A stretch of DNA of 45,595 nucleotides from Planctomycetales bacterium. Its GTDB lineage: Bacteria; 4484-113. Positions 1,038-25,651 of the stretch are shown here, piece by piece. The stretch is from assembly GCA_037445915.1 (NCBI GenBank), contig JBBIJQ010000010.1:1-45595 (forward strand). Direction: 5' to 3'. Every line of letters starts with the position of its first letter. Position 1 is the stretch's first letter. The translations under genes were made by a program, and so were the position numbers. The notes under the pieces are model-generated. The model was given only the letters and a program-made list of their open reading frames with translations. It was not told the DNA's origin and made no database searches.

Positions 1038-1055
1038 TGTGGTATCATAATAGCT

Positions 1056-2201: not shown

Positions 2202-2207
2202 GGGCGC

Positions 2208-3593: not shown

Positions 3594-3745
3594 AGGTCTA
3601 TTAGACTACCATCAAGCTGGGATTGTTGCATAGAAGGGGGCGTGGGGGCGGATGCAGGATTAGATTTCCTGAGGTTTACTAAAGTGGTCTTTGGGGGACC
3701 TGCGCCTTGGCCAGACGCAGCCAAATCAGGAAAGAGGAAAGAGAG

Positions 3746-10795: not shown

Positions 10796-10821
10796 GCTCC
10801 TAAGCTATAATAATCAGCAGC

Positions 10822-11952: not shown

Positions 11953-11956
11953 GGCG

Positions 11957-12925
11957 TTAGTCCGCCTCTATGTCAGGCTCATCATCTTCAGGCGACGAGT
12001 CGTCAAGCGTGCGCGGCCGGTATTTCAAAAAGCGCAGCAAGTTGCCCCGCTCGTTAAACGACACTTCGTCCATGAGGTTCTTAACCAGGAACAGCCCACG
12101 CCCATACATTCGCATGAACGATTCCGGATCAAGGTCTTCGTTAACGGAGCTATAGTCAAAGCCTGGGCCTTCATCCAACACGCTTACTTCCAGCCGTATC
12201 GCGTCTATTGAGGCAAAGATGGTGATGGACTTGCCGCGGTTGGCTACGTCCTCCATCTGCTCCAGGAGATACTTGCGGTAAACGCTGTGTCCGAGCACGA
12301 GGCACCGTTCTTTGCACTCCTTGTCCACTTGCAGGTTGCCGTGCTCAAAGGCATTAAGCAAAACTTCGTAGAGGGCGACTTTCACGTCGTTTAGCTGCGC
12401 GCCCTCCATTTGCCAGCAGTCCCGCACATTAGCAAAGATGTAGTTAATAATCTTTGAGAGGTAGATGTAGTTGTTTGGGATGCGGATTGTGAAGCTTTGG
12501 CTGCGGATAAAAGGGACTATCTCGCGGACGTCCGCCGTCTCGCGGTGGACGGCGAAAATGTTCTCAATGAGGGTGACGACCTGGTTGATGTCAAAAGGCT
12601 TCTTGATGAAGCTATTTGCCCCCAGCCGGATCGCGGAGATTGCATCCTCCATAGTGCCGTAGCCGGTAAGGATAATGACAGGGACGTTGATGCGCCTTCG
12701 CCTGATTTCGCCCAATAGCTCAATCCCGCTCATCTCCGGCATCTTGATGTCGGTGATTATGAGGTCGGGCATCATATTTTCAATTACTTTCAGCGCCTCA
12801 ACCCCGTTCCCAGCCTGGAGAACCTCGTAGCCGAGCGATTTTTGGATCTTGCTTGCGATGACGTCGCGGATTATCTCCTCGTCGTCAACGACTAATATCC
12901 GCTTAGGTAAGAGGGCATACTCCAT
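11957..12925 (-). CDS. Response regulator receiver fused to RsbW-like HATPase domain
   Basis: ILVVDD, TDIKMP, KKPF receiver motifs; EVLLNAFEHGN, DEGPGFD, GRGLFLV ATPase boxes. Confidence 0.9.
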   Translation of the reverse strand: MEYALLPKRILVVDDEEIIRDVIASKIQKSLGYEVLQAGNGVEALKVIENMMPDLIITDIKMPEMSGIELLGEIRRRRINVPVIILTGYGTMEDAISAIRLGANSFIKKPFDINQVVTLIENIFAVHRETADVREIVPFIRSQSFTIRIPNNYIYLSKIINYIFANVRDCWQMEGAQLNDVKVALYEVLLNAFEHGNLQVDKECKERCLVLGHSVYRKYLLEQMEDVANRGKSITIFASIDAIRLEVSVLDEGPGFDYSSVNEDLDPESFMRMYGRGLFLVKNLMDEVSFNERGNLLRFLKYRPRTLDDSSPEDDEPDIEAD

Positions 12926-13045
12926 GGCGCGCTAATACTAGCCGCGCAACCCAAAGCTGTCAAACGCTTCACCTTTGCCTGCCCATCTCCAAGCCGAATC
13001 AGTATAGTTAGTTAAAATTGGCAATTAGCGTTGTTATATTATTGC

Positions 13046-13062
13046 CAGTATATGCTATACTG
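13046..13062 (+). promoter_or_regulatory. Extended -10 promoter (TGcTATACT) embedded in inverted repeat CAGTATA-TGC-TATACTG
   Basis: TG at 13053-13054 and TATACT at 13056-13061, 49 nt upstream of the portal ATG. Perfect 7-3-7 inverted repeat. Extra CAGTATA half-site at 13000-13006. Confidence 0.65.
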
Positions 13063-13110
13063 TAAATGGGCGTGTAGTTATGCCGCCTAGAGCGCAGGAA
13101 CAACCCAACT

Positions 13111-14478
13111 ATGGCAATTAGAACTTGGCGAAACTTCAAGAAACTAGACAATTGCAGCCGGAGCTATCTGGATACCGATGTAGCCTGCGAGGAACGGCTA
13201 GCTAGGCTTGCAAAGCTGCGCCATCACTCGCGTTACTATGCTGGCAGCATCTACCGCTATCCCGGCGAATGGGCGGCCCAGTCCAACTACAGCCCCGGCG
13301 TCAAGCCGCCTGCTATATACGTGAACTATGCCCGCTGCCTAATTGACCGGTTGGCGTCGTTTAGCTTTGACCGGGCCGCAGGCATTAGCCTCATTCCCGG
13401 TGGCGAAGCTGTCAGCGAAAGCGCGCCTGACGCCGCATCCCGCTTCCTTGCAGGTTTCCTGCGCTCGTCACGTATCCTGGCGCGCCTCACCTCCGTTGCC
13501 AGGGAAGCGCTTCTCTTCGGCGATGTCCTCCTCCGCCTCCAACACACCCCCTCCTCCCACTTTCCCCTCGGCTTCTGCCTCGTGCCGGCAGAAGAATACG
13601 ACTACGAGCACAACCCACTAGACATCGCCGAAGTGCGCTTCATCCGCGAAGAATACTTCTATCGCGGCGGCAACGGGGCTATGCTTGCCCACCGCGAAGA
13701 CTACTACCCCGATAAGACCATTATTTACCGCGACCAGCCTGCCGAGCAGTTGTCGCTTCGGCAAGCGGCGCTTGCTCTCTTGAAGCCTGTTGCAGCGCCC
13801 AGGGAATTCGCAGTTGCACATGTGCTTCCCAGTTCCTTCGGGGTTATTCCTGCTGTGCAGGTGCGCAACCGGCCGCAAACAGGCCAGAAGTTCGGCATAA
13901 GCGAACTGGCAGACCTCACACCGCTGCTAGACGACATTAACTGGAAGCTCGCCCAGCGTTCGCGGAATATCTCGCGGACGATGAACGCCATCATCAAGAA
14001 CATCAACGGCCGCATCGTGACCGGCGAGTATGACGACACCCAAATCATCAGCGTGATGGGAGACAACCCGCAGCTTGATTATCTCGTGAACAACAGCGAC
14101 CTCGCGCCAGTGAATGCGCATATCACCGACTTGAAACAGGCGCTGGCGGAGCTGACAGGCGTAGTGATGCTAAGCCCCGAGAAGCTTACCAGTGTAGGCG
14201 CGATGTCGGGCTTCGCCCTGTCAATCCTCTACGAGCCGCTGTTGAATGCAGCGCGCACAAAGCGCCGCGAGATTGGCGGATGCGTGGAGGACTTCCTAAA
14301 GCTTGCATTGAAAGCAGGTGCTGCGCTGGGGCATCTCTCAGTTGAAGAAGCGCAGGCCGCGCAGCCAACGATTACGTATGCGCCCGACATGCAATTCACC
14401 GAGCAGGAAAAGCTCACCCGCCTGCGCCGCGAGATGCTGGCATCGCAGAACAACCTTACGCTGAACCCCGATAACTAG
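13111..14478 (+). CDS. Phage portal protein (SPP1 gp6-like)
   Basis: NYARCLIDRLASF, EALLFGD, FGVIPAVQVRN, GISELADLTPLLDDIN and AMSGFALSILYEPL match the SPP1-type portal pattern. First gene of the head module. Confidence 0.88.
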   Translation: MAIRTWRNFKKLDNCSRSYLDTDVACEERLARLAKLRHHSRYYAGSIYRYPGEWAAQSNYSPGVKPPAIYVNYARCLIDRLASFSFDRAAGISLIPGGEAVSESAPDAASRFLAGFLRSSRILARLTSVAREALLFGDVLLRLQHTPSSHFPLGFCLVPAEEYDYEHNPLDIAEVRFIREEYFYRGGNGAMLAHREDYYPDKTIIYRDQPAEQLSLRQAALALLKPVAAPREFAVAHVLPSSFGVIPAVQVRNRPQTGQKFGISELADLTPLLDDINWKLAQRSRNISRTMNAIIKNINGRIVTGEYDDTQIISVMGDNPQLDYLVNNSDLAPVNAHITDLKQALAELTGVVMLSPEKLTSVGAMSGFALSILYEPLLNAARTKRREIGGCVEDFLKLALKAGAALGHLSVEEAQAAQPTITYAPDMQFTEQEKLTRLRREMLASQNNLTLNPDN

Positions 14479-14488
14479 GAGGCGCGAT

Positions 14489-14773
14489 ATGAACGAGATC
14501 ACCAACACCGAAACTACAGACAATTGCGATCCTGAAGCCGAGCCTACTGCCGACGGCGAAGCTCACGAAACTGAGCCAGCACCTTTGCACAATGCGGAAC
14601 ACTCACAACCGCCGATGAATCTTGAGCAGATGGTGCGGGAGGCGATAGACCGGCGCATTGCCGAGCTGTCTCCCCCGCGCCGCGAGATTCCCCGCGTGGA
14701 AGCTGCATCGGGCGAACTGCTGCCGGAACAGCGGCTGAGGCTTGGCTACGGAACGCGCGAACCCAACACTTAG
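14489..14773 (+). CDS. Putative short capsid scaffolding protein
   Basis: Acidic, low-complexity 94 aa immediately before the MCP. C-terminal LPEQRLRLGY resembles scaffold tails. GGAGG RBS. Confidence 0.55.
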   Translation: MNEITNTETTDNCDPEAEPTADGEAHETEPAPLHNAEHSQPPMNLEQMVREAIDRRIAELSPPRREIPRVEAASGELLPEQRLRLGYGTREPNT

Positions 14774-14795
14774 CAACTAAACACAGGAGAAACGA

Positions 14796-15707
14796 ATGGC
14801 ACTTACATTGGCTGAAGCAGCCAAACTTGAAACCGATTACTTGCGCCGTGGCGTCATTGAGACCTTCGGCGAATTCTCGCCCGTCCTGGAAGACCTGCAG
14901 TTCGTCCAGGTGCAGGGCAACTCTTACCGCTACAACCTTGAAGACACGCTGCCCGAGGTTGACTTCCGCGCCGTCAACGCGCCCTACAACGAAAGCGCAG
15001 GCACGGTCACCGCGCAAAGCGAGACGCTGGCGATTTTCGGCGGCGTGGTGGACGTTGACCGCTACCTCCAGCAGGTGCGCGGCTCGGTGAACGACCAGCG
15101 CGCATTGCAGACGCGCCTGAAAGTCAAGTCGCTGGCGCTCGCGTTCACGCGCGAGTTCTTCAAGGGCGATGCGACAGCGAACCCCGACAGCTTCAACGGC
15201 CTTGCCAAGCGCCTTACCGGCGGCCAAATCATCACTGCCGATGCGGGCGCAGGCAACGGCGATGTGCTCAAGCTGGAGCATATTGACCAGCTCATTGACA
15301 CGGTCTGGAACGGCCCGGACGTGCTCTACATGAACAAGGCCAACCGCCGCAAGCTTATCCAGCTTGGGCGCGAGACCGAGCTGGTCACGGTGGAGATGGA
15401 CGCTGCCGGACACGTGCGCACCTACTACGACGGCATCCCGGTGAAGGTCGTGGAAAAGGACAACCACAACGACGACATCCTCGGCTTTGACGAGACCGTC
15501 GGCGCCGAGGACGAATGCTCCAGCATCTACGCCGTGCGCTACGGCGCGGACGAGTTCGTCTGCGGCCTTACCAACGGCGGCATCCAGGTGGAAGACCTGG
15601 GCCTCATCGCCAACCCGCCTGTTTACCGCACCCTCATTGAGTGGTATGTAGGCCTGGCGGTCTTCAACCCGAAATCCGCAGCCCGCCTCAAGGGCATCCA
15701 CCAGTAG
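14796..15707 (+). CDS. Major capsid protein (HK97 fold)
   Basis: MALTLAEAAKL..LRRGVIETF, GNSYRYN, FRAVN, GGVVDVDR, FNGLAKRL, SSIYAVRYG and YRTLIEWYVGLAVFNPKSAARLKGI form a recognisable phage MCP pattern. AGGAG RBS. Confidence 0.93.
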   Translation: MALTLAEAAKLETDYLRRGVIETFGEFSPVLEDLQFVQVQGNSYRYNLEDTLPEVDFRAVNAPYNESAGTVTAQSETLAIFGGVVDVDRYLQQVRGSVNDQRALQTRLKVKSLALAFTREFFKGDATANPDSFNGLAKRLTGGQIITADAGAGNGDVLKLEHIDQLIDTVWNGPDVLYMNKANRRKLIQLGRETELVTVEMDAAGHVRTYYDGIPVKVVEKDNHNDDILGFDETVGAEDECSSIYAVRYGADEFVCGLTNGGIQVEDLGLIANPPVYRTLIEWYVGLAVFNPKSAARLKGIHQ

Positions 15708-15716
15708 GCAAACCCC

Positions 15717-15965
15717 ATGGACCCGAAGCGACTCCGAGGCTACATCCGACTCGCCTGCGCAGTTACCGGCGCTGGACGCGCTAAAGAACGGCGCGCGCTT
15801 AGTGCGCTTGGCGGCAATGACGCGCTCTATGAAGTCACGCTCCCCAACCGCCATTACACCGGCCCATTGCTGGGAGAGTGGTTTGAAGACGGCATGGCTC
15901 AGGTGGGAGAAGCAGCCTCGGAGCGTTTCAGGTCGAGGGGATATGCAGTCCGCAAGCTTTGCTAA
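15717..15965 (+). CDS. Small capsid-associated phage protein
   Basis: PNRHYTG...F.DG...FRSRGYAV resembles small proteins that follow this MCP type. Function unknown. Confidence 0.5.
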   Translation: MDPKRLRGYIRLACAVTGAGRAKERRALSALGGNDALYEVTLPNRHYTGPLLGEWFEDGMAQVGEAASERFRSRGYAVRKLC

Positions 15966-15977
15966 TCGCTTAAGCCA

Positions 15978-16562
15978 ATGAACACCAACCTTGATTACAT
16001 CCGCACGTTTCTGGGCGAGCGCAGCAGCGAAAGCCCACTGCTCGCCGATGATGAGCTTAGGGCGCTGATGTCGCTTTCCATCCGCCGCGAGCTTCCCGAA
16101 CGGCTGGGCGCCCGTATGGCTATGCAGGGCGTAGCATGCACCCGAGTCTCATCGGACGGATTGATGCGCTTCACGCTAAAGCCGCTAGCGCACGCGCAGA
16201 CGGAATACCACGCAGGCATAGGCAACTGGCTTGACGGCGCTTACGCCATTCGCGTAGGAGATGTGAACTACCTGCCTGCCGAGGGCGATGTCGTGGACAC
16301 GTTTGGCGGCCGCATCCTCTTCGCGCAAACTCCGCCGCCCGGCGTGGTCACAGTTGAAACATACTTGATTGACTTGCGCGCAGTGCTCATTGAAGTGTTG
16401 CGCATCTTCAAGGCATCGCACTCGCGGCTATCTCTGAAAACGAACCTCGCCGGAATAAGCGTTGACCTCACGGGAATCTGCGCCGGCATTCAAGCGGAGA
16501 TTGATGCGCTGTCCACCGGCTACGAACTTCCCTTCGCCGTGTCAGAGGACTTCCCGCACTAA
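15978..16562 (+). CDS. Putative head-tail adaptor
   Basis: Position after the capsid genes; helical N-terminus IRTFLGE..PLLADDEL. Assignment mainly by synteny. Confidence 0.5.
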   Translation: MNTNLDYIRTFLGERSSESPLLADDELRALMSLSIRRELPERLGARMAMQGVACTRVSSDGLMRFTLKPLAHAQTEYHAGIGNWLDGAYAIRVGDVNYLPAEGDVVDTFGGRILFAQTPPPGVVTVETYLIDLRAVLIEVLRIFKASHSRLSLKTNLAGISVDLTGICAGIQAEIDALSTGYELPFAVSEDFPH

Positions 16563-16960
16563 TGGGCGCGCCGATGCTAAGCCGCGTGTTTGAAGAACTG
16601 CTGCGCCATCTTGGCGGCAGCGCGGAAGATGTGTCGCTGCGCACGTATGTGGAGACGGCGCAGGCAGAGCCCGAAGCGGGAATGCCGCCGCTGCGCACGT
16701 TTAGCGACATGCCGATTATCCCGCGCCCGATTGTGCTGGATGCAGACGGCGCACAGGCTGAAGGCTTAAAGCCAAGCTTCGCCGGAAGGCGCGGCGTTGG
16801 CGGATGCCGCAAGCTTGTGGTTTCAGGCGGCTGCGAAGTGCGGCTTGGAAGCATCCTCGCGTTTGCAGACGCGGAATGGGAAGTGACTGGGATGCGCGCG
16901 CCAGTGCTTTACGGGGAGACGCCGCTAAAGCTCTTGCTCGCAAGGAGGTTGCAACCGTGA
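16562..16960 (+). CDS. Putative head closure/stopper protein
   Basis: TAATG coupling; beta-rich C-terminus VRLGSILAFADAEWEVTG. Assignment by synteny. Confidence 0.45.
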   Translation: MGAPMLSRVFEELLRHLGGSAEDVSLRTYVETAQAEPEAGMPPLRTFSDMPIIPRPIVLDADGAQAEGLKPSFAGRRGVGGCRKLVVSGGCEVRLGSILAFADAEWEVTGMRAPVLYGETPLKLLLARRLQP

Positions 16961-17394
16961 TTCTTCACACGACATATAGCGTCAACAAGTGGCTTTCTGG
17001 GCGCCTGAGCACATTCAGCGCCGTGGCGTTTATGGACACGCAAGACCTGCCGCTCCCCGGCTATCAAGTCATTTGGGGCGAAGAGCGCGAGATGCAGGTG
17101 CGGCCGCGAGGAGCATTGTCGGGGGCGAGGTTTACCATATACTGCGCTGCGCCAATAAGCCAGTGGCACCTCTCGCGCAGGCTTGCCACATGTGCACTTT
17201 CGGTTCTGCGCGGAGCCGCAGGCGGCTTCACCATCCCCCGCTACCGTTATCCGTTTAACAAAGGCGACCTGCCCATCGGGCGCATCGCCCTGCGCGACAT
17301 CTCCGCTCGGGAGCTGCACGATCCGCTACATCCCGAGCTTGCGCTGCACGTCGTCCGTGCGACCGCGCTCACCATCAACCCGCCCACCTGCTAA
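16957..17394 (+). CDS. Putative tail terminator/completion protein
   Basis: GTG at 16957 overlaps the previous stop (GTGA), with AAGGAGG RBS at 16942-16948; 145 aa; directly before the tube gene. Assignment by synteny. Confidence 0.45.
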   Translation: MILHTTYSVNKWLSGRLSTFSAVAFMDTQDLPLPGYQVIWGEEREMQVRPRGALSGARFTIYCAAPISQWHLSRRLATCALSVLRGAAGGFTIPRYRYPFNKGDLPIGRIALRDISARELHDPLHPELALHVVRATALTINPPTC

Positions 17395-17403
17395 GGAGCT
17401 GAA

Positions 17404-18162
17404 ATGTCCTTCAACTACGATGCGCTGGCCCTCGGCGGCTGCGAAATATACATCAACGACTGCCACGCCGGTTTCGCTTCCGGCATCACGCTGCGCAAAA
17501 CGGTGGAACGCCTGCCCGTTGACATTGTCTCTAACGGCGAGCTGCACACGCGCCACATGATTCCGCTTCGGCGCACGCTGCACGTGGAAGTGCGGCTTAA
17601 AGAACTCAGCCCGGCTGCGCTGTCGCTGTTCGCATCGGGCGAAATAAGCATTGTTCTTGCGCCAGCCAACAGCGGCGTAACCGATTACGTCCGCCTGTTT
17701 GCCGGAATGCCGACGGCGCTGCGGCACTTGCCTGCGACAACTCCGGTTGTGAAAAGCGCAAACGGCTCGGTGGCTTACACCGAAGGCGATGATTACGTAT
17801 CAGACTGGGCGAACCGCACTTTCAGCCTTGCGCAAGACTCGGATATCGCGCCGGGGCAGCTCCTCAAAGTGAGTTACACCGCCGACATCCCGGCCGGCCG
17901 CGAAGTGAAGTTCGCAGGCGGCGGCTTGATCACCGCGAAGATGGAAGCGCTGCACCGATACCCTGACGGCGTGAGCTTCGCCGTGTTGCACTTGCGACGC
18001 GTGGAGCTGGACGCCTCGGGCTTGCTCGCGTTGGGCGGCGAAGACATAACTGAGATACCCATTGCCGGGCGATGCCTTTCCGATGCCGCGCATGCCGATT
18101 CGCCTTTCGGCTATGTGCGCTTTCACGGCGGAACAATGCCGCAGATGGAGAGCCGCTTGTGA
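17404..18162 (+). CDS. Putative major tail tube protein
   Basis: LALGGCEIYIN start, VEVRLKELSPAALSL, YTEGDDY insertion domain and C-terminal SPFGYV. AAGGAG RBS. Confidence 0.7.
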   Translation: MSFNYDALALGGCEIYINDCHAGFASGITLRKTVERLPVDIVSNGELHTRHMIPLRRTLHVEVRLKELSPAALSLFASGEISIVLAPANSGVTDYVRLFAGMPTALRHLPATTPVVKSANGSVAYTEGDDYVSDWANRTFSLAQDSDIAPGQLLKVSYTADIPAGREVKFAGGGLITAKMEALHRYPDGVSFAVLHLRRVELDASGLLALGGEDITEIPIAGRCLSDAAHADSPFGYVRFHGGTMPQMESRL

Positions 18163-18707
18163 GCCTGTTCATTGGCCAGCGCGATGAGGACATTGACGCG
18201 CTGAACACGCGCATTGACGAGCTGGCGCGCGAAGTTGCAGCGCTGAAATCACTTCAGCGAGAGGAAACCGATGCGAGCGATGGCGCAGGCACAAGCAAGC
18301 TGGACGACACGCTGGACTCTGCGCTGGAAAACGCCTTGCGGCGCATAGGCATCACGATTGCGCGCGGTGGATCGCTGGATGATGCTGTGGGCGCAGTCGC
18401 CTCGCAGCTTGAGCATGTTGCCGGAAGGAAGCTGGAAAGCTGGCTGGTCGCTGAAGCTGGCGGGGGATTGCTGGGCGCGCTCGTCGGGGGTGCTGGGGCC
18501 GCGCTGTTCAGCGATGCCATTGACGCCGTTGTCCGCGCAATAAGGCCGCGCCGCCTCTACTTGCCCGAAGTTGAAGATTCAACGTTTGCTGCGTTCCCAA
18601 TGTATGCCGCGCGCGGGAGCATCTTCCCGCAAGGAGATGAGCGCGATGACGCGCTTGAGCGAAGCCTAGCGCAAGAACTTGCGCGGGCGATTTCGGAGGA
18701 AAGCTAA
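18159..18707 (+). CDS. Very short tape-measure-like protein
   Basis: GTG at 18159 (GTGA overlap); 182 aa; N-terminal coiled coil and Gly/Ala-rich hydrophobic AGGGLLGALVGGAGAALF. Lies between the tube and baseplate genes. Confidence 0.55.
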   Translation: MSLFIGQRDEDIDALNTRIDELAREVAALKSLQREETDASDGAGTSKLDDTLDSALENALRRIGITIARGGSLDDAVGAVASQLEHVAGRKLESWLVAEAGGGLLGALVGGAGAALFSDAIDAVVRAIRPRRLYLPEVEDSTFAAFPMYAARGSIFPQGDERDDALERSLAQELARAISEES

Positions 18708-19160
18708 ATGTTGAGACTTTGGTTCGGCGAAACAACCGCCGACGCGATAGGCATTTATCCGCTGCTGCTTGAGCTTGAGCACGGCGAGAGCTTCGCAGTC
18801 GTGCCAACGCTCTCCGGCGTGCTTCACCGCATCGCCTTCTCGCAAACGCGCTATCCCTCAGCCGTGCGCATAACGCTGCCTGTTTCGCAGCTTGGGCTGC
18901 GAAGCGCTGAAAACAAAAGCCTGCGCGAACTAATCACTGCGCGTTTGGAAAACGGGCGGCCGGTAACAGCGTTTATTGAAAGCACAGGTATCGCCTTGAA
19001 CATCGCGTTCACTGCGCTGAGGCCCGCCGCGATAGTTGATGAGGAACTTACGGGAAGTGCAGGCCAGCAAAGCGCCGCGCTGGAAGGCATCGTTATCGCG
19101 GACGGTTCGTTCACTAACTTCAATTCGCTTGCAAGCGTTACCTGGAGGGCGCGCAGCTAA
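18708..19160 (+). CDS. Putative distal tail (Dit-like) protein
   Basis: 150 aa after the TMP-like gene; TLSGVLH motif. Assignment by synteny. Confidence 0.4.
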   Translation: MLRLWFGETTADAIGIYPLLLELEHGESFAVVPTLSGVLHRIAFSQTRYPSAVRITLPVSQLGLRSAENKSLRELITARLENGRPVTAFIESTGIALNIAFTALRPAAIVDEELTGSAGQQSAALEGIVIADGSFTNFNSLASVTWRARS

Positions 19161-21073
19161 TGGCATTCACGAAAACAGCACGCGATTATGTCGCGCAATC
19201 CGACAAGCGCATCTATTACACGCTTGAAGTTCGCGGCTTCCACGAAGAGAATGCGCAGTGGTCGCGGCTGCCGCTGGCGCGCGAAGGCTTCCGGCTGGTA
19301 AGCGACCGCGCGGAGCTGGCAGCATCGCTGGAATTCACGCTTCCTGCGGCGAGCGCGCTGCATTTCAGCGAGCTAAACCCCAACAACCCGCTGGCGCTGT
19401 TCAGCGAGGCGCGCCTGACCTGCGAGATGGCCGGCGAAAGCGAAGTGCTGTTTCTCGGCTTTATCAACGAGATACGCGAGGAAGGCGGCGTAATGCGCTG
19501 CTTTGCCCGCGATAATGCGCAGAAGTTATCGCGCGCAGTTTGCGAAGTGGAGATGGAAGGCAAAACGACAGCCGAGCTTGCGCTTTCGCCGCTAATCGTT
19601 CTGGCAAGCGAATACGACGCCTGCACATTCGGCCTTGACCCGCATAAAACGCCGGACGGCTTCAGCGCAGCAGGCGTGCGCCGCGCCTGGAAGCCCGGCG
19701 ATATCCGCGTTTATGCGAATGGCGCGGAAGTCCAGCCGGACCTTTATCGCGTGTATCCCGAAAGCGGCGTCGTGCGCTTCGCGCAGCCGATTACGCAATT
19801 GTTGAGCGTTACCGGCGTGCGCTGTTGCATTGAAGGCACGAGCGATGCTGCAGTGGCCGTTACGAAAGCGCTGCAATATCCGCAAGGCAAAGGCGGCATA
19901 GGCGCAGGCTCAAGTGACTGCGACTTGCCGGATATCGGCGTTGACCTGCACCGCTTGGAATGGCGGCGCGGCGCAGGCAAAACGTCGGAGTTCATCGCTG
20001 CGCTTAGCGAAAGGCTACCACGCAACTACCGCTTCTGGCACGACCCGTCACGCGGCGTGTTCACGCATGCGCTGATGGAGCAAAACCTGCTTGCGCCGCA
20101 TGCCCTCAGTGGCATCGCGTCATTCGCCCGCATCCGCAGCCGCAAGGGCATATACACTCGCGTCATCGTGAATGGTACGCGCACCAACGCGCCTAACCTC
20201 GCGCCGGTCGCGGCAGTCACCGACTTGCAGCAAAACGTGGGCGAGGTGTTTGAGTGGAGCGGCAACGAGCGCACCGTGGGGCAGGGGAGCATCGCGCTTA
20301 TCATTGACGGCGACTCCAACCACGGGTTCGGGCGGCACAACGCACCGTATCTTTACCAGTTCTACGACTTTGCGCTGATTGACCTGGGGCTTGACGCAGA
20401 AGGCAAACCTCCGCGTGTCAGCGCTATTGAGCTTACCGCCGCGAATTCGCACAACGTGAATTCGCAGAAGTCCGCTAATACCAAGTTCAGCTTTGGCTAT
20501 GAAGTCCTGGGAAGCCTTAACGGCGCGGATTATCAGCGCATTTCGCCGGACGCTCAAATGCTGCTCGCGCCGCTGCAAACGACGCGCTTAGGCAACCTCA
20601 CGATGCAACGCATGCGCTACGTAAAGCTGCGCGTAAAACCGGCGAAGGACGGCGTAAGCAACGACAACGACCCAGGGCTGGCGCTGAATGAAATACGCAT
20701 TTACGGCGACGACAGCTTCACGACCGAAGCCGCGCTCCAAGATACCGACCCGCAAGGAGCGTTTTACTGTCCGGAGCTGCTGGAGAAGTGCGAAGGCGCG
20801 GGGGCGCAGGTGATGCTGGTGGACGTTGGCGATAAGCTTCCTGAATGCGAAGCGGCGAAGCTCGCGGCCGACTTGCTCATAGAATCGCTTTGCGCCTACA
20901 CAAGCTTTGAAGTGGAATGCGCTGCTGACCCCACCGTGCGGGTTGGGCAGACTGTGTCCTGCGCCCATCCCGTCACCGGCGGTGTGCAGTCATTCATCGT
21001 TGAGCGAGTTGAGCTGATGCCCGGGCGTGTGCGCATCTGCGGCACCAACTACAACGCGGAGGTGCTGCGATGA
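19160..21073 (+). CDS. Putative baseplate hub/tail-tip protein with inserted carbohydrate-binding-like domain
   Basis: LFLGFINEI...ARD start, IYTRVIVNG, ADPTVRVGQTV..FIVERV end (hub-like). Internal IIDGD...IDLG...YEVLGSLNGADYQ...RYVKLRV...LNEIRIYG is discoidin/F5-8-like. Confidence 0.65.
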   Translation: MAFTKTARDYVAQSDKRIYYTLEVRGFHEENAQWSRLPLAREGFRLVSDRAELAASLEFTLPAASALHFSELNPNNPLALFSEARLTCEMAGESEVLFLGFINEIREEGGVMRCFARDNAQKLSRAVCEVEMEGKTTAELALSPLIVLASEYDACTFGLDPHKTPDGFSAAGVRRAWKPGDIRVYANGAEVQPDLYRVYPESGVVRFAQPITQLLSVTGVRCCIEGTSDAAVAVTKALQYPQGKGGIGAGSSDCDLPDIGVDLHRLEWRRGAGKTSEFIAALSERLPRNYRFWHDPSRGVFTHALMEQNLLAPHALSGIASFARIRSRKGIYTRVIVNGTRTNAPNLAPVAAVTDLQQNVGEVFEWSGNERTVGQGSIALIIDGDSNHGFGRHNAPYLYQFYDFALIDLGLDAEGKPPRVSAIELTAANSHNVNSQKSANTKFSFGYEVLGSLNGADYQRISPDAQMLLAPLQTTRLGNLTMQRMRYVKLRVKPAKDGVSNDNDPGLALNEIRIYGDDSFTTEAALQDTDPQGAFYCPELLEKCEGAGAQVMLVDVGDKLPECEAAKLAADLLIESLCAYTSFEVECAADPTVRVGQTVSCAHPVTGGVQSFIVERVELMPGRVRICGTNYNAEVLR

Positions 21074-21867
21074 GCCGCGCCGATACGCTAAACCGCGCTT
21101 TGAAACAGCTTGTGGACAAGCGCCTAGCGGCGCGGGGGAAACGCACAGGCGGGATGCCGCCTGAACTTCGCCCGTCGCAAGTGCATTTCGGCCCGCCGTC
21201 AGGCAGCGACGACTTTGACCTTGGCGGCGTGCGCAGCATCTCCATCCCTGGCGCAAGCAGCCTTACCGGCGATGTGGATGTCGCGGGCGTTGAAGGCATT
21301 GCCGCGTCGCAATCAGGGCAGGAGCTTCGCCTCGCCCCGCCTCGCCTTCGCCACTGCGCCAACCCGCGCACACCGCTGGGATGCTCTGCGTACGCGCCTC
21401 TCATTCTACGCACCATCTACCTGCACCCGCTGGAGCTTTCCGGCGCGATGCAGCTTTCGGCCTGCTATTTGCGCATCCAGCGAAACGGCAACCCCAACAA
21501 TGCGCTGGTGATGCTTGAAGCGGCGGTGTATGCGCGCAACAGCGCCAACAACGGCTTTACGCGCGAAGCATACACGGGCGCGCTGCGCTTCAACGACCTC
21601 ACGCGCCTGAGCACAGGCTCTGTTTACCGTTGCGCATTTTCGCCAAGCGCTCTGCTGCCGATGGGCCAGCGCTTCTTCGCGCTGCTCTACAAATACATCG
21701 GCCCTGACAGCTACAACTTCGGCGTGTGCAGCTCCAGCGATGGGCACTACCCCGGAGCAGGGCTATTCCTGAGCGGTGCTGCAAACGCACTGCCTGAAAG
21801 CATCGCCGATTCCGGCCGCAGCGCCTATGCGCAAAGCATAGCCTGGGCTGAACTCGCCGCAGACTAA
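21070..21867 (+). CDS. Putative tail fibre/receptor-binding protein
   Basis: ATGA overlap; GVRSI...LTGDVDV..EGI fibre-type linker, then a beta-rich aromatic domain. Last structural gene before the lysis genes. Confidence 0.45.
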   Translation: MSRADTLNRALKQLVDKRLAARGKRTGGMPPELRPSQVHFGPPSGSDDFDLGGVRSISIPGASSLTGDVDVAGVEGIAASQSGQELRLAPPRLRHCANPRTPLGCSAYAPLILRTIYLHPLELSGAMQLSACYLRIQRNGNPNNALVMLEAAVYARNSANNGFTREAYTGALRFNDLTRLSTGSVYRCAFSPSALLPMGQRFFALLYKYIGPDSYNFGVCSSSDGHYPGAGLFLSGAANALPESIADSGRSAYAQSIAWAELAAD

Positions 21868-21892
21868 TAACACTACCTCCAAGGAGCTACAT

Positions 21893-22135
21893 ATGGACGC
21901 CAAAACCCTTACCAAGAAGCTGCTCGCATTCCTCCTCCATCTCGCCTTCGCGCTTTACGAAACCGAAGCGAAACTCATTTTCCAATTCATCGCGCAGGTG
22001 AAAGCCGAAGGCCTCACCGGCGACGATGCGCGCCGCGAAGTCCTGCGCCGCTTCCGCCTGCACTGCGGCGATACGCTGCGCGACAGCGTCGTGAATTTCC
22101 TCATTGAAGCCGCCGTCGTCGCGGGGAAGCCTTAA
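21893..22135 (+). CDS. Holin-like protein (LL-H-like pattern)
   Basis: N-terminal hydrophobic helix, GLTGDDARREV and C-terminal LIEAAV. AAGGAG RBS. Confidence 0.5.
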   Translation: MDAKTLTKKLLAFLLHLAFALYETEAKLIFQFIAQVKAEGLTGDDARREVLRRFRLHCGDTLRDSVVNFLIEAAVVAGKP

Positions 22136-22138
22136 GTA

Positions 22139-22420
22139 ATGGACGGCTGGGCTTCACTCATCGGCAACGTCGGCATCGGCGGCGGGCTGGCGTTCTTCTT
22201 CGCGTGGTATCTCGTGCGCGCGGTCATCCCTCAGCTTATGAGCGAAAACGCGCAGCAACGCGAAGCCTTCCTCACGGAGTTGGCGAAGCAGCGCGAAGAA
22301 TTCCTCTGCGCGCTTGAAGGGCTCAAGCTTAGCGGGGAGCGCGCCGCCTGCGGCATATCGCAGCGCATAACAGAACTTGGGGCGCAGCTTTCGCGGCTAG
22401 CGCCCGCGAGGAAAGAATAA
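22139..22420 (+). CDS. Holin-like protein (single TM plus coiled coil, BhlA/UviB-like)
   Basis: GNVGIGGGLAFFFAWYLV TM, then a coiled coil. Immediately upstream of the amidase. Confidence 0.55.
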   Translation: MDGWASLIGNVGIGGGLAFFFAWYLVRAVIPQLMSENAQQREAFLTELAKQREEFLCALEGLKLSGERAACGISQRITELGAQLSRLAPARKE

Positions 22421-22422
22421 TT

Positions 22423-22893
22423 GTGGGCGGGTTCAGCATCGTTTACCTCGCCGACAAGCTTCCGCGCCATTCGCGCAAGCGCTATGCGCAACGCAAGCAC
22501 GCTGATATCTCGCGCATAGTCATTCACCACAGCGGCACGCGGGAAGGCTCGCCGCAGGACTTTGCGCGCTACCACGTGCTGCACTGCGGCTGGCCGGGCA
22601 TCGGCTACCACTTCGTAATCGGCAAGCGCGGGGAGGCGTGGAAAACAAACGACCTGACTACGGTGAGTTATCACGCGAAGGGCGCGAATGCAGACAGCAT
22701 CGGGATATGCCTCGTGGGGAATTTCTCGCGCGAAACGCCGCAGGAGGCGCAGCTTGCCGCGTTGCGCTGGCTCATCTTCCGAATCCAAGACGAGTTGAAG
22801 CCCGCGCCGTCCGTCGTGCTGCACCGCGAGATCAAGGGAAGCAAGACCACCTGCCCCGGCCTGCGCTTCACACGCGATTTGCTGCGAGGTTAA
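22423..22893 (+). CDS. N-acetylmuramoyl-L-alanine amidase (Amidase_2/T7-lysozyme-like endolysin)
   Basis: IVIHHS, GIGYHFVI, HAKGAN.SIGICLVGNF, HRE and TCPG. Zn ligands are intact. Confidence 0.93.
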   Translation: MGGFSIVYLADKLPRHSRKRYAQRKHADISRIVIHHSGTREGSPQDFARYHVLHCGWPGIGYHFVIGKRGEAWKTNDLTTVSYHAKGANADSIGICLVGNFSRETPQEAQLAALRWLIFRIQDELKPAPSVVLHREIKGSKTTCPGLRFTRDLLRG

Positions 22894-23768
22894 AGCTCCG
22901 CCTTCGTAAGACCAAGCCTGTCCAGCAACATGCGCACGCGGTCGCGCGGGAGTTCCCAGCCCTTATAGGGGCCGTCAAGGTAGCCGTGCCAGTCGCTGCC
23001 GCCGGTTGCGATAAGCCCTCGCGCGTCCACCATTCGCAGCAGCTCTCCGCGCACCGCGTCTTGCCCCCGGTAAAACACTTCGTAGCCGTCGCATTCCGCA
23101 ACAAGCGCGGCATCGCGCACTTTCGCCGAAGTTATCTTGTAAGGATGCGCAACTATCGCCAGCGCACCGTGCTCCCGTGCCCAGGCTATGCCGTCGGCGA
23201 ACTTAAGCGGCGGCGGGAGATACGCCTTGCCGCCGGGACCGATGGTCTCGCGGACAAAGCCGTCGTACCATTTCTTAAATTTGCCGCGAATGACGACGCC
23301 AAGCGCCCACAGGGGCCTGCGACGAAAGAGGTCCCAGAGGTAATGGCTTATCATCACCGGGTCGCCGCCAGCCAGCTTCTCCAGCCGCGAAAAGTCAAAG
23401 CCGTAGCCGCTTCCGGCAGCGCGCTCGCACATCAGCCGGTGCAGCTCGTTGCGCTGCTCCTTTATTTCCTTCAATGACTGCGCAAGCTTCCCGTCCACTC
23501 GCACGCCTAGCGCGAGAACATGCGCTTCCGCGCCTTCGCCGCCTGCTTCCAGCCAGGTCGTCAGCTCCAGCGCGGGAATGGCGAGGATGCCAAGCGCATT
23601 CGCAGACTGGTAAAACTCGGGGAAGCCGCCCATCGTGTCATGGTCAGCCAGCGCCGCCACGCGCACGCCGCGCGCAAAGAGCATCTTGGAAATCTGCGCG
23701 GGAGAATAGCGGCCATCAGAATGGCGCGAGTGGAAGTGCAGGTCGCAGCCTATGTTGTCGCCGGCCAC
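22890..23768 (-). CDS. PHP domain phosphoesterase (TrpH/YciV-like)
   Basis: DLHFHSRHSDG, ALADHD, AHP and TGGSDWHG. Confidence 0.93.
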   Translation of the reverse strand: MAGDNIGCDLHFHSRHSDGRYSPAQISKMLFARGVRVAALADHDTMGGFPEFYQSANALGILAIPALELTTWLEAGGEGAEAHVLALGVRVDGKLAQSLKEIKEQRNELHRLMCERAAGSGYGFDFSRLEKLAGGDPVMISHYLWDLFRRRPLWALGVVIRGKFKKWYDGFVRETIGPGGKAYLPPPLKFADGIAWAREHGALAIVAHPYKITSAKVRDAALVAECDGYEVFYRGQDAVRGELLRMVDARGLIATGGSDWHGYLDGPYKGWELPRDRVRMLLDRLGLTKAEL

Positions 23769-23795
23769 TGGCTGGCGATTATACCAGCGCTGCGC

Positions 23796-24164
23796 TTAAT
23801 AGATGCGAAACCCTAGTAACGACGCGAAAAACCAAAAAAGCAGCAAGCCCATCACTAGCAGGAATACTCCGGCGACCAGCGGGCTTAGCGGCGCATGGCG
23901 CAGGTAATACTCCGCGCTTTGGACGCAGGGCGGGGTATCCCGCCAGCGCTGCTCCAGCCGAGCATACCAGTTGCTCAAGATAAGCTTCTCCTGTTCGGTG
24001 CGCGGGACGTCAAGGTATGTGTGGTAATACCAGGCGAAGATGGAGCTGAAGACGGCGAGAACAATTAGCGCGGGAATAAACCACTGGATTGACAGCAGGA
24101 TGGTCAACAGCACGATGAAGACTGCAAACCAGTCGATGATGGCGATTTTCGGCACGCCTTTCAT
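23796..24164 (-). CDS. Hypothetical membrane protein
   Basis: Three hydrophobic segments; GGAGG RBS and TGgTATAAT upstream. Confidence 0.7.
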   Translation of the reverse strand: MKGVPKIAIIDWFAVFIVLLTILLSIQWFIPALIVLAVFSSIFAWYYHTYLDVPRTEQEKLILSNWYARLEQRWRDTPPCVQSAEYYLRHAPLSPLVAGVFLLVMGLLLFWFFASLLGFRIY

Positions 24165-24182
24165 ATTTGCCCTCCGCTGTGA

Positions 24183-25625: not shown

Positions 25626-25651
25626 GGCGTGATAGTAGCATAGCGCTGCAG

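What the first reader, a model, noticed from the sequence alone, without database searches (positions are those of the whole stretch)
13111..22893. Candidate new gene-transfer-agent-like virion operon: intact head-tail-lysis genes in 9.8 kb with no phage life-cycle genes
Seen: 15 same-strand ORFs with no evident frameshift or internal stop, overlapping or separated by 25 nt or less. Portal, MCP and amidase are recognisable by motif, and the genes are in siphovirus order. No integrase, repressor, replication, terminase or cargo gene is recognisable anywhere in the window. Host genes lie immediately on both sides. Known: RcGTA, BaGTA, VSH-1 and PBSX are domesticated virion clusters that lack autonomous replication. 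Inference: this is a host-maintained particle factory (GTA, PBSX-like killer particle or other capsid device). The SPP1-type portal, separate scaffold and lack of a prohead protease argue against it being an RcGTA orthologue.
Basis: partly seen in the sequence, partly recalled or inferred. Interest (0 to 1): 0.93.

Follow-up and report, generated by a model that had tools for sequence, protein, structure and literature searches.

The report
Domesticated GTA-like phage particle operon
An uncultured bacterial lineage has kept a compact set of phage head, tail and lysis genes at one chromosomal spot and under purifying selection for as long as its families have diverged. This pattern marks a virus tamed by its host, most likely to make gene-transfer-agent-like particles.

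Summary
Window 13111-22893 carries 15 tightly packed, intact + strand genes: SPP1-type portal, major capsid protein (MCP), stopper, major tail protein, a short tape-measure-like protein, a baseplate hub with a sugar-binding insert, a holin-like protein and an amidase. Host genes abut both ends. No integrase, repressor, replication gene, terminase, tRNA or att repeat was found.

- The cluster sits between the same host genes in all same-family genomes where flanks were visible, across five genera.
- Element trees match a GyrB tree, and pairwise identities correlate at r 0.90-0.96.
- The MCP is as conserved as GyrB.
- dN/dS for all 15 genes is 0.04-0.38, like the flanking host genes.
- The closest phage MCPs are at most 51% identical.

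One intact large terminase lies alone on another contig. It is conserved in relatives and lies at least 71-80 kb from the cluster in three genomes.

All 24 genomes held for the phylum carry a hub homologue. One family joins it to a different head module with the terminase alongside.

Caveats: one genus carries a degraded copy, the window's genus lacks two chaperone-like genes, and no particle, packaging or expression data exist.

Verdict: a domesticated, non-RcGTA, GTA-like element. GTA function itself is inferred, not shown.

The parts
11957..12925 (-). Divergent neighbour: response-regulator receiver fused to an RsbW-like HATPase_c_2 domain. It is a candidate regulator and a conserved neighbour in family f1.
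   Evidence: PF00072 2e-31 and PF13581 1.4e-18. It is adjacent to the portal gene in all f1 loci whose left flank was visible: L029, L030, L031, L032, L033 and G004. A regulatory role is inferred.
12926..13110 (.). Intergenic region with the conserved 14-nt motif TGCTATACTGTAAA at 13053-13066. It may be an extended -10-like element for the operon, or a -35 for the divergent gene.
   Evidence: The motif TGCTATA(A/C)TGTAAA is invariant in 6 of 6 f1 genomes from 3 genera, while the rest of the spacer has diverged (alignment A7; sequence). Promoter-like matches occur on both strands. These are consensus matches only.
13111..14478 (+). g01: portal protein, SPP1 gp6 type (455 aa).
   Evidence: PF05133 1.8e-14 and phrog_64 4.4e-19. 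It is the only portal family hit in the own genome. dN/dS 0.098.
14489..14773 (+). g02: small acidic protein (94 aa), putative scaffold by position.
   Evidence: No family hit. It is the least conserved gene, with dN/dS 0.38. Its position between portal and MCP matches the scaffold of phage Unity. Function is inferred.
14796..15707 (+). g03: major capsid protein (303 aa).
   Evidence: phrog_212 6e-80 and PF20911 7.9e-20. Identity is 98% in the genus, 79-84% in the family and 62-70% in sister families. dN/dS 0.038.
15717..15965 (+). g04: small head-associated protein of unknown role (82 aa).
   Evidence: Only a weak phrog_10541 hit, 0.005. Conserved in f1 at 48-87%. dN/dS 0.12.
15978..16562 (+). 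g05: head-tail connector candidate (194 aa).
   Evidence: Role assigned by position. The profile search of PDB sequences gave nothing significant. Conserved in f1 and f3. dN/dS 0.115.
16562..16960 (+). g06: stopper / head-closure protein (132 aa).
   Evidence: Profile A3 hits PDB 10lj_A 'Stopper protein gp12' at E 2.8e-5. dN/dS 0.15.
16957..17394 (+). g07: tail-terminator / head-tail joining candidate (145 aa from GTG 16957).
   Evidence: Role assigned by position. The start was set by alignment A8. No PDB sequence hit. dN/dS 0.11.
17404..18162 (+). g08: major tail protein (252 aa).
   Evidence: phrog_807 3.3e-13. Profile A9 hits the JBD30 major tail protein 8rk3_q at E 0.006 over its full length. 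dN/dS 0.11.
18159..18707 (+). g09: short tape-measure-like protein (182 aa from GTG 18159).
   Evidence: N-terminal coiled coil; profile A6 gives only coiled-coil hits. It has a Gly/Ala-rich hydrophobic segment. It sits where the tape-measure protein lies in phage Unity. The two chaperone-like ORFs that precede it in other genera are missing here.
18708..19160 (+). g10: distal-tail-protein candidate (150 aa).
   Evidence: Role assigned by position, immediately before the hub. It is co-conserved with the hub even in family f2. No significant PDB sequence hit.
19160..21073 (+). g11: baseplate hub / tail-tip protein with an inserted galactose-binding-like (CBM32/discoidin-like) module (637 aa).
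   Evidence: AlphaFold2 model with pLDDT 77.6. Foldseek matches include Algoriphagus eCIS baseplate 7aef_q 1.7e-9, T5 tail tip 7zqp_b 2e-9, Mu gp44 1wru 1e-7 and RcGTA virion 6tba_7A 8e-6. The insert matches sialidase CBM 1eut and CBM32 2wdb. A homologue is present in 24 of 24 phylum genomes.
21070..21867 (+). g12: conserved tail-end protein of unknown fold (265 aa); receptor-binding or fibre role is a lead only.
   Evidence: Mean column identity in f1 is 73% (A5). No Pfam, PHROG or PDB hit. The AF2 model is poor, pLDDT 40. The ESM Atlas places it nearest unnamed phage clusters (0.93-0.94), with weak Mtd_N and Phage_fiber_2 leads.
21893..22135 (+). g13: small protein with one hydrophobic stretch (80 aa), lysis-cassette candidate.
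   Evidence: Its position lies before the amidase. Sequence. Conserved in f1 at 53-86%. dN/dS 0.22.
22139..22420 (+). g14: holin-like protein with one predicted N-terminal membrane helix (93 aa).
   Evidence: Kyte-Doolittle segment at residues 12-30. Its position lies before the amidase. dN/dS 0.10.
22423..22893 (+). g15: N-acetylmuramoyl-L-alanine amidase (endolysin type, 156 aa).
   Evidence: PF01510 1.6e-22 and phrog_1493 / phrog_822 at 1e-24. dN/dS 0.095. Its 3' end overlaps the convergent PHP gene (22890-23768, - strand).

Best explanation
This is a domesticated, vertically inherited siphovirus-derived particle module of an uncultured lineage. NCBI record titles call its relatives Planctomycetales, and it probably belongs to the GTDB placeholder phylum 4484-113.

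Proposed mechanism:
1. A conserved promoter region upstream of the portal gene drives one 15-gene operon. The operon builds a capsid (portal, small scaffold-like protein, MCP), a head-tail connector (g05-g07) and a short non-contractile tail. The tail comprises the major tail protein, a 182-aa tape-measure-like protein, a distal tail protein and a hub with a sugar-binding module. By the roughly 1.5 A per residue ruler known from lambda (recalled), the tail would be about 30 nm long.
2. A holin-like protein and the amidase release the particles by lysis.
3. DNA is packaged by the only large terminase in the genome, which is encoded alone at an unlinked locus (G000:C35:15290-16792).
4. The genes lie in separate places, at least 71-80 kb apart in three relatives. 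There is no integrase or replication module. So a particle cannot carry its own blueprint and must carry other, presumably host, DNA. That is how a gene transfer agent works.

Shown: gene content, intactness, synteny, congruence with the host tree, purifying selection, and the unlinked conserved terminase.

Inferred: particle formation, use of that terminase, packaging of host DNA, transfer to recipients, and regulation.
For: (1) Gene content is structural plus lysis only. Flanks are host genes. There is no tRNA and no att repeat.

(2) Same locus in family f1. In L029, L030, L032 and L033 all 15 genes are colinear between ECF sigma / anti-sigma / hyp378 / STK / RR-HATPase and PHP / CCA. L031 shows the left flank. 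G004 shows both flanks. Cluster proteins are 35-98% identical and flank proteins 32-92%.

(3) Distribution. MCP and portal were found in 14 of 24 phylum genomes: f1 9/9 including the own genome, f3 4/4, f4 1/1 and f2 0/10. They were found in 0 of 17 genomes from other phyla.

(4) The MCP identity gradient (98 / 79-84 / 62-70%) is as flat as that of GyrB (95 / 73-78 / 60-63%).

(5) Tree congruence. The concatenated portal+MCP+MTP tree of 11 genomes equals the GyrB tree except for the order of three genera. Pairwise identity r with GyrB is 0.90-0.96, and 0 of 2000 Mantel permutations reached it.

(6) dN/dS against the same-genus genome is 0.038-0.376 for all 15 genes, with dS 0.31-0.69. Seven flanking host genes give 0.08-0.23, with dS 0.34-1.19.

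(7) Outside relatives are distant. Phage MCPs are at most 51% identical (310 INPHARED records, all under 60%). Five IMG/VR loci are 41-48% identical. In an MCP tree, the 13 genome rows plus 22 database rows lie on one side and 50 phage-like rows on the other. The hub family has only 20 database relatives, at 49-97% identity, on contigs up to 275 kb.

(8) Terminase. There is one Terminase_6N hit in the own genome. No PF03354, PF04466 or PF17289 hit was found. It is 500 aa with Walker A/B motifs visible and is flanked by AspRS and a serpin. It matches phage terminases over its full length at 28-31% identity, E 1e-43 to 1e-45. dN/dS is 0.27. It was found in 12 of the 14 MCP-bearing genomes, always on a different contig from the MCP and among non-phage genes.

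(9) The own genome has no other portal or HK97 capsid family hit. It has only two Xer-sized recombinases, on other contigs.

(10) The promoter-region motif is conserved in 6 of 6 genomes.

(11) Compaction. The cluster is 9.8 kb, against 15.2 kb for portal-to-endolysin in phage Unity. The tape-measure protein is 182 aa against 965 aa.
Against: There is no evidence of particles, expression or packaged DNA. No RNA run holds the stretch.

One of five f1 genera (G004) carries a degraded copy at the same locus. Its MCP ORF ends after about residue 174 and is followed by unrelated DNA. Portal, hub and g12 are each split over two frames. g04-g06 were not found. The flanking host genes are unbroken. 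So the element is dispensable in at least one lineage.

The window's genus lacks the two chaperone-like ORFs that lie between the tail protein and the tape-measure-like gene in every other genus examined. They were not found elsewhere in the 90%-complete genome.

In family f3 the cluster's flanks differ between genera, so locus conservation is shown only for f1.

The terminase locus keeps its neighbours only within the genus. The terminase was not found in G002 (93% complete) or G003 (77% complete), and G006 has only a fragment at a contig edge.

No small terminase was identified.

Capsid capacity is unknown. MCP relatives come from phages of 43-59 kb, so a head could in principle hold the 9.8-kb cluster itself.

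The host tree rests on one marker, GyrB. All genomes are metagenome bins.
Confidence: 0.55

Rival explanations
1. The module is domesticated and makes particles, but for a purpose other than gene transfer. Candidates are a PBSX-like killer particle (phibacin), programmed lysis for eDNA or biofilm release, or a delivery device aimed by the sugar-binding hub.
For: The comparative evidence is the same: synteny, dN/dS and congruence. The hub carries a carbohydrate-binding module. A lysis cassette is kept. Nothing in the sequence distinguishes DNA transfer from killing.
Against: An intact, conserved large terminase and portal are kept, which argues that DNA packaging matters. There is no sheath or contractile-tail gene and no toxin-like cargo in the cluster. 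ComEC, DprA and a ComEA-like gene are present, but these are common in control genomes as well.
Confidence: 0.25
2. Only a few genes, for example the amidase, hub or MCP, are kept for a cellular function. The rest are hitch-hiking remnants that no longer form a particle.
For: The window's genus has lost two chaperone-like genes. G004 has a broken copy. In f3 no amidase was found next to the cluster.
Against: All 15 genes, not a subset, show dN/dS of 0.38 or less with unsaturated dS. All are intact and colinear in four genera. The tail genes downstream of the deletion still show dN/dS 0.14-0.18 between the two species that share it.
Confidence: 0.08
3. It is a still-mobile defective prophage or satellite. 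It would integrate repeatedly at one conserved site and rely on a helper phage for terminase, replication and integration.
For: The terminase is missing from the cluster. The cluster sits at different places in f3 genera. Family f2 genomes carry a related tail tip on a different head module.
Against: There is no integrase, att repeat or tRNA at the borders. Flanks and gene content are identical across genera. The element tree tracks the host tree. Same-genus dS in the cluster equals that of the flanking genes. No empty-site joint appears in 4 DNA runs, which are contigs only. No helper prophage was recognisable in the own genome.
Confidence: 0.05
4. It is an ordinary prophage remnant decaying neutrally.
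For: It lacks life-cycle genes. One genus has a degraded copy.
Against: Neutral decay cannot keep 15 ORFs open, with dN/dS near 0.1, across family-level divergence where GyrB is 73-78% identical.
Confidence: 0.02

Closest known systems
RcGTA of Rhodobacter capsulatus and its alphaproteobacterial relatives (properties recalled; PDB entry 6tba was seen as a hit)
   Same: Both are compact head-tail clusters without life-cycle genes. Both are vertically inherited, under purifying selection, have the MCP as the best conserved gene, have a short tail and have further genes at unlinked loci. The hub fold resembles chain 6tba_7A (E 8e-6).
   Different: There is no sequence orthology; the best PDB sequence hit to an RcGTA chain has E 0.55. 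This element has an SPP1-type portal and a PF20911/phrog_212 MCP instead of an HK97-type MCP with protease. The large terminase is outside the cluster, whereas RcGTA has it inside (recalled). The amidase and holin-like genes are inside the cluster. The host phylum is different.
PBSX-type defective prophage particles of Bacillus subtilis (recalled)
   Same: Both are chromosomally fixed, non-propagating phage-like particle clusters with a lysis cassette.
   Different: PBSX is a contractile-tailed element with its terminase genes in the cluster, and it kills sensitive cells (recalled). Here no sheath family was hit and the terminase is unlinked.
Siphophages with PF20911/phrog_212 capsids, e.g. 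Paenibacillus phage Unity (NC_055031) and the Pseudomonas phage JBD30 tail
   Same: Gene order is the same: portal, scaffold, MCP, connectors, tail protein, tape measure, Dit, hub, holin, amidase. The MCP is 51% identical. The tail protein profile hits the JBD30 major tail protein.
   Different: Unity has TerS and TerL in the cluster, a minor head protein, chaperones, a 965-aa tape measure and about 30 kb of further genes. Its TerL and portal are unrelated to those here.
Head-tail cluster of sister family f2 in the same phylum (e.g. G011:C1, about 1355700-1370900)
   Same: It shares Dit-like and hub homologues at 30-33% identity. It is also about 15 kb, colinear across three genera, and present in 10 of 10 f2 genomes.
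   Different: The order there is TerL (phrog_38), portal (phrog_113), protease (phrog_976), MCP (phrog_371), with the terminase in the cluster. A divergent HTH-S24 (LexA/CI-like) gene lies next to it.

Membership tests
Gene transfer agent (functional class; criteria recalled from the GTA literature) | Phage-like structural gene cluster without replication, integration or lysogeny genes | tested here: met
   Searches gave only structural, lysis and host families. There is no tRNA or att repeat.
Gene transfer agent (functional class) | Vertical inheritance with the host and purifying selection on the structural genes | tested here: met
   Synteny is conserved in f1. Trees are congruent and r is 0.90-0.96. 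dN/dS is 0.04-0.38, like the flanks. Exception: the copy in G004 is degraded.
Gene transfer agent (functional class) | Particles cannot carry all genes needed to make them | tested here: inconclusive
   The terminase is unlinked. From contig geometry it lies at least 80 kb away in G005, 79 kb in G023, 71 kb in G008 and 16 kb in G000 (coordinates). MCP relatives come from 43-59 kb phages. Capsid capacity itself is unknown.
Gene transfer agent (functional class) | Particles are produced and package essentially random host DNA | not testable with these tools
   The organism is uncultured. Only 4 DNA runs, held as contigs, carry the stretch, and no RNA or virome run does.
Gene transfer agent (functional class) | DNA is delivered to recipient cells and recombined | not testable with these tools
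   ComEC, DprA and a ComEA-like gene exist, but they also ring in 10-11 of 14 control genomes.
Gene transfer agent (functional class) | Production is controlled by host regulators | tested here: inconclusive
   There is a conserved upstream motif and a conserved divergent RR-HATPase_c_2 neighbour in f1. This neighbour is absent in f3. No functional data exist.
RcGTA-type (alphaproteobacterial) GTA orthologue | HK97-type MCP with prohead protease, and the large terminase at the head of the cluster (recalled) | tested here: not met
   The MCP is PF20911/phrog_212 and the portal is SPP1-type. No protease was hit. There is no PF05065 or PF04860 hit in the genome. TerL is on another contig.
Intact temperate prophage | Integrase, repressor, replication genes and att sites | tested here: not met
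   None in the window. The only two tyrosine recombinases are about 300 aa and lie on other contigs.
Tailocin (headless phage-tail bacteriocin) | Tail genes without head or packaging genes | tested here: not met
   Portal and MCP are present, intact and the best conserved genes.
Capsid-forming PICI / phage satellite (recalled definition) | Mobile island with integrase and replication module that relies on a helper phage for tails | tested here: not met
   There is no integrase or replication gene. The element has its own tail genes. Its locus is fixed and its tree congruent with the host's.

The most novel reading that the evidence does not exclude
An ancestor of the whole candidate phylum captured a siphovirus and turned it into a gene transfer agent. 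The element has been kept through the radiation of at least three families, with a capsid protein evolving as slowly as gyrase B. Its terminase was moved to a separate locus. One family later swapped the entire head-packaging module while keeping the same tail tip. If so, this would be a new, independently domesticated GTA lineage in an uncultured phylum. It would be among the deepest virus domestications known in bacteria.
Probability: 0.35. Interest if true: 0.85.

Novelty: new variant of a known kind. Interest (0 to 1): 0.74.

Why it matters
As far as I recall, gene transfer agents are known from only a handful of lineages: Alphaproteobacteria, Bartonella, Brachyspira, Desulfovibrio and Methanococcus. 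How often bacteria tame viruses into DNA-shuttling particles is an open question.

This case has the full comparative signature of domestication in a small-genome (1.5-2.8 Mb), uncultured candidate phylum, and it comes from a different phage ancestor.

It offers three things:
- A concrete, testable candidate for horizontal gene exchange in subsurface communities.
- A natural example of a packaging enzyme separated from its virion genes.
- Sister families that pair one tail tip with two unrelated head modules.

My literature searches listed no paper on a GTA of this group. Searches listed 15 of 35 and 11 of 12 papers, read as titles and abstract openings. One search listed six papers. One search listed six papers naming '4484-113', none about phage elements.

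Tried and rejected
Expression. The look-up of sequencing runs listed 4 DNA runs from one study (subsurface metagenome) and no RNA holder.

Read layout. Read laying on window 10000-26000 showed contigs bridging both cluster borders and no joint that skips the cluster. These are contigs only, so nothing can be said about depth or rare forms.

g12. No Pfam, PHROG or PDB sequence hit. The AF2 model was too poor to search, pLDDT 40. The ESM Atlas gave only unnamed phage clusters.

Other unknowns. Profile searches of PDB sequences were not significant for g05 (A2), g07 (A8), g10 (A4) and the hub (A1).

Small terminase. The ORF directly upstream of TerL in genus g5 (L041:10399-11283) has a 33%-identical relative in G000 at C71:4092-4850. 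It has no Pfam family. It belongs to a multi-copy family, with 3 or more copies in G001 and several in g5, found in f1 only. I do not claim it as TerS.

Common ancestry with phage Unity. Its TerL and portal are unrelated to those here, so only the MCP module is shared.

Identity of family f2. The HZS_alpha family rang in 2 of 2 f2 genomes tested and 0 of 3 others, but also in a control genome. I draw no conclusion.

Not used. Complex prediction was not used, because a portal-terminase pair is a transient textbook pair and a blank would say nothing.

Limits. Calling the 232-aa ORF in G004:C1 an M15-type peptidase rests on recall of the motif.

Method notes:
- Trees. One search used 11 of the 14 MCP-bearing genomes. 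Dropped were G004 (degraded), G007 (portal cut by a contig end) and G022 (tail gene outside the fetched locus).
- One search used the 13 genome MCPs plus 72 of the 120 listed database proteins (P0001-P0060 and every fourth one after that, with identical rows removed).
- dN/dS is my own Nei-Gojobori script run on the best tblastn segment per gene. Comparisons with other genera were saturated (pS 0.48-0.81) and are not used.

Full report
OBSERVATION

Window 13111-22893 holds 15 + strand ORFs with no internal stops. They overlap by 1-4 nt or are separated by at most 25 nt. Two starts needed correction. g07 begins at GTG 16957 and g09 at GTG 18159. Each overlaps the previous stop as GTGA (alignments A8 and A6).

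HMM scans identify four of the genes:
- An SPP1-type portal: PF05133 1.8e-14, phrog_64 4.4e-19.
- A major capsid protein: phrog_212 6e-80, PF20911 8e-20.
- A major tail protein: phrog_807 3e-13.
- An Amidase_2 endolysin: PF01510 1.6e-22.

Pfam scans of 30 other ORFs of the window found only cellular families. To the left are an ECF sigma/anti-sigma pair, a Ser/Thr kinase and a divergent response-regulator-HATPase_c_2 gene. To the right are a convergent PHP gene and a CCA/polyA polymerase. There is no tRNA. No direct repeat brackets the cluster. GC matches the surroundings.

ANATOMY

I built profiles from relatives and one structure model to fill in roles.
- g06 matches a solved 'stopper protein gp12' (10lj_A, E 2.8e-5).
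- The tail protein profile matches the JBD30 major tail protein (E 0.006 over its full length).
- g09 is a 182-aa protein with a coiled-coil N-terminus, sitting where the tape-measure gene lies in related phages.
- g11 (637 aa; AF2 pLDDT 77.6) has the baseplate-hub fold. It matches T5 pb3, Mu gp44, eCIS and VgrG-type hubs, and a chain of the RcGTA virion. It carries an inserted CBM32 / sialidase-type galactose-binding module.
- g14 has one predicted membrane helix.

The order matches that of phage Unity: portal, scaffold-like, MCP, small protein, three connectors, tail protein, tape-measure-like, Dit-like, hub, g12, two small lysis-type proteins, amidase. In Unity the same block takes 15.2 kb and the tape measure is 965 aa. 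Here it takes 9.8 kb. g02, g04, g05, g07, g10, g12 and g13 are assigned by position only.

WHO CARRIES IT

Record titles of relatives call them uncultured Planctomycetales, and one is 'Planctomycetales bacterium 4484_113'. Other sources label cluster members as Riflebacteria or Chloroflexi.

The genome tool puts the window's genome in a phylum of only 24 species genomes of 1.5-4.1 Mb. A passage of PMC11382960 lists a GTDB placeholder phylum 4484-113 with genome sizes of 1.54-4.11 Mb. The identification is therefore likely but inferred.

MCP and portal were found in 14 of these 24 genomes: own family f1 9/9, f3 4/4, f4 1/1 and f2 0/10. They were found in 0 of 17 genomes from other phyla.

TESTS OF DOMESTICATION

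1. Locus. In four f1 genomes with 10-kb flanks (L029, L030, L032, L033) all 15 genes are colinear between the same host genes. L031 shows the left flank. G004 shows both flanks on two contigs. Cluster proteins (35-98% identity) diverge like the flanking host proteins (32-92%).

2. Rate. MCP identity is 98% in the genus, 79-84% in the family and 62-70% in the other families. GyrB is 95%, 73-78% and 60-63%.

3. Congruence. For 11 genomes the concatenated portal+MCP+tail-protein tree equals the GyrB tree, apart from the order of three genera. That order has support 98/98 in the element tree and 69/67 in the GyrB tree. Pairwise identities correlate with GyrB at r 0.90-0.96, and 0 of 2000 Mantel permutations reached those values.

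4. Selection. Against the same-genus genome, where dS is unsaturated (0.31-0.69), dN/dS is 0.038 for the MCP and 0.095-0.376 for the other 14 genes. Seven flanking host genes give 0.08-0.23.

5. No close phage.
   - Among 310 INPHARED records with a match, all are below 60% identical and the best is 51%.
   - Five IMG/VR loci are 41-48% identical.
   - In a tree of 85 MCPs, the 13 genome copies and 22 database relatives lie on one side of a branch. The f1+f3 part of that side has support 99. The other 50 rows, all phage-like, lie on the other side.
   - The hub has only 20 relatives (49-97% identity) among 5.8 billion clustered proteins at that tool's sensitivity. Some lie on contigs up to 275 kb.

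None of the refuting outcomes occurred.

THE TERMINASE

The window has none, but the genome has exactly one. It is a 500-aa Terminase_6N protein at G000:C35:15290-16792, between an AspRS-type synthetase and a serpin. Three other terminase families were not found.
- It aligns over its full length with phage large terminases at 28-31% identity, E 1e-43 to 1e-45.
- It shows Walker A and B motifs, and its dN/dS is 0.27.
- It is present in 12 of the 14 MCP-bearing genomes. G002 (93% complete) and G003 (77% complete) are the misses, and G006 has a fragment at a contig edge.
- It is always on a different contig from the MCP.
- In other genera it also lies among non-phage genes.

From contig coordinates it is at least 80 kb from the cluster in G005, 79 kb in G023 and 71 kb in G008.

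The own genome has no second portal, no HK97-type capsid and only two Xer-sized recombinases. The lone terminase and this cluster are therefore the only recognisable virion parts. They most simply belong together. That link is an inference.

RESULTS THAT CUT THE OTHER WAY

- G004 (genus g4) has the cluster at the same locus, but broken. The MCP is truncated after about 174 residues and followed by unrelated DNA. Portal, hub and g12 are each split between two frames. g04-g06 were not found. The neighbouring host genes are intact.
- The window's genus (G000, G001) lacks the two small chaperone-like ORFs that separate the tail protein from the tape-measure-like gene in genera g2, g3, g5 and in f3. 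They are not elsewhere in the 90%-complete genome. The downstream tail genes still show dN/dS 0.14-0.18 between the two species that share this deletion.
- In f3 the flanks differ between genera. They are host-type genes: triosephosphate isomerase, a DCC1-like protein, an epimerase and a radical SAM protein. No amidase was found beside the f3 cluster.
- No small terminase was identified.
- No expression or particle data exist.

THE WIDER PICTURE

The hub gene has homologues in 24 of 24 phylum genomes. In family f2 it lies, with the Dit-like gene, in a different 15-kb cluster. That cluster reads: large terminase (phrog_38), portal (phrog_113), protease (phrog_976), MCP (phrog_371), connectors, tail, hub, fibre-like protein. 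It sits next to a divergent HTH-S24 (LexA/CI-like) gene. It is colinear in three f2 genera. Its MCP is in 10 of 10 f2 genomes (one weak match) and in 0 of the other 14.

So the two head modules partition by family, while the tail tip is shared at 30-33% identity. Whether this reflects a module swap in one ancient element or two separate captures of related phages is open. The tool's ranks place f2 in the same order as f1, but GyrB identities do not resolve this.

INTERPRETATION

Best reading, confidence 0.55: this is a domesticated siphovirus-derived module that still builds DNA-filled, short-tailed particles, released by its own lysis cassette. The particles are filled by the trans-encoded terminase. 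Because the genes are scattered and no life-cycle genes remain, they would carry host DNA. That makes it a GTA-like element.

A conserved 14-nt motif upstream of the portal gene (6 of 6 genomes) suggests host-integrated control. So does the conserved divergent response-regulator-kinase gene in f1. Neither has been tested.

Rivals:
- The same particles used for killing, lysis or delivery (0.25).
- Selection on only some genes (0.08).
- A helper-dependent mobile element (0.05).
- Neutral decay (0.02).

COMPARISON AND NOVELTY

The element works like a GTA but is not an RcGTA orthologue. It has a different portal and capsid family, no protease and an unlinked terminase. Sequence similarity to RcGTA chains is insignificant (E 0.55), and only the hub shows fold-level likeness.

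It is also not PBSX-like (no sheath), not a tailocin (heads are present) and not a satellite (no integrase, own tail, fixed locus).

Literature searches listed no description of such an element in this group. Searches were read as listings. PMC12213060 was checked at the passages found, where the GTA paper is only cited in passing. Supplementary files were not consulted.

I rate the finding as a new variant of a known kind, with interest 0.74. The comparative signature is unusually clean and deep. The function remains unproven, and the hosts are uncultured.

Noticed in passing
L053 / L084 (G011:C1, about 1355700-1372100); also L055, L056, L057: All 10 family-f2 genomes carry a different compact head-tail cluster: TerL, portal, protease, HK97-like MCP, tail, hub, fibre-like protein and an 882-aa protease. 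It sits next to a divergent HTH-Peptidase_S24 (LexA/CI-like) gene, with an IS200-like gene nearby. It shares only the Dit-like and hub genes with the window's element. It may be a second GTA-like or SOS-controlled element.
   Followed up: partly
G004:C1:1-4300 (L086) and G004:C2:364000-370893 (L087): The cluster copy in genus g4 is degraded at the conserved locus. The MCP is truncated and followed by foreign DNA, which includes a 232-aa ORF that looks like an M15-type peptidase (by recall). Portal, hub and g12 are each split across two frames.
   Followed up: partly
window 18159-18162, compared with L030:13360-14012, L032:13381-14038, L035:5244-5965 and L045:15009-15652: The window's genus has a deletion of about 650 nt that removes two small chaperone-like ORFs between the major tail protein and the tape-measure-like gene.
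   Followed up: yes
G000:C71:4092-4850 (L058); L041:10399-11283: A 252-aa ORF has no Pfam family and belongs to a multi-copy family restricted to f1. In all three genus-g5 genomes a copy lies directly upstream of the lone terminase. Its role is unknown; a small terminase is one possibility.
   Followed up: partly
window 32575-33078 (-) and 35760-42334 (+): A ComEA-like HHH_3 DNA-binding protein and an AddB/AddA-type helicase-nuclease pair lie 10-20 kb downstream. ComEC (C8) and DprA (C7) are present elsewhere in the genome. These are common genes, so they are only weak support for DNA uptake.
   Followed up: partly
L053:5062-5709 and L036:6320-6964: A NYN-domain gene lies within a few kb of the head-tail cluster in both an f2 genome and an f3 genome. 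This may be coincidence.
   Followed up: no
L014:10568-11212 (G000:C35): A 214-aa ORF compared with the same-genus genome gives dN/dS 3.8 with dS 0.02. It is probably not a real gene in that frame, or it overlaps something else that is conserved.
   Followed up: no
window 11100-11420: Many metagenome contigs from other organisms join or end inside the kinase domain of the Ser/Thr kinase gene (joints and loose ends). This reflects a conserved domain shared by many community members, not a feature of this locus.
   Followed up: no
window 1-5000: A macro-domain gene, a Fic/DOC gene, a VWA gene and a dockerin-bearing gene sit in a stretch of lower GC (0.51-0.52 in places). This could be a small accessory island.
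   Followed up: no
P0007, P0009, P0131 and the titles of L029-L038: Public labels for members of this one lineage disagree: Planctomycetales, Candidatus Riflebacteria, Chloroflexi or plain 'bacterium'. Name-based surveys would therefore miss that the element belongs to a single phylum.
   Followed up: no
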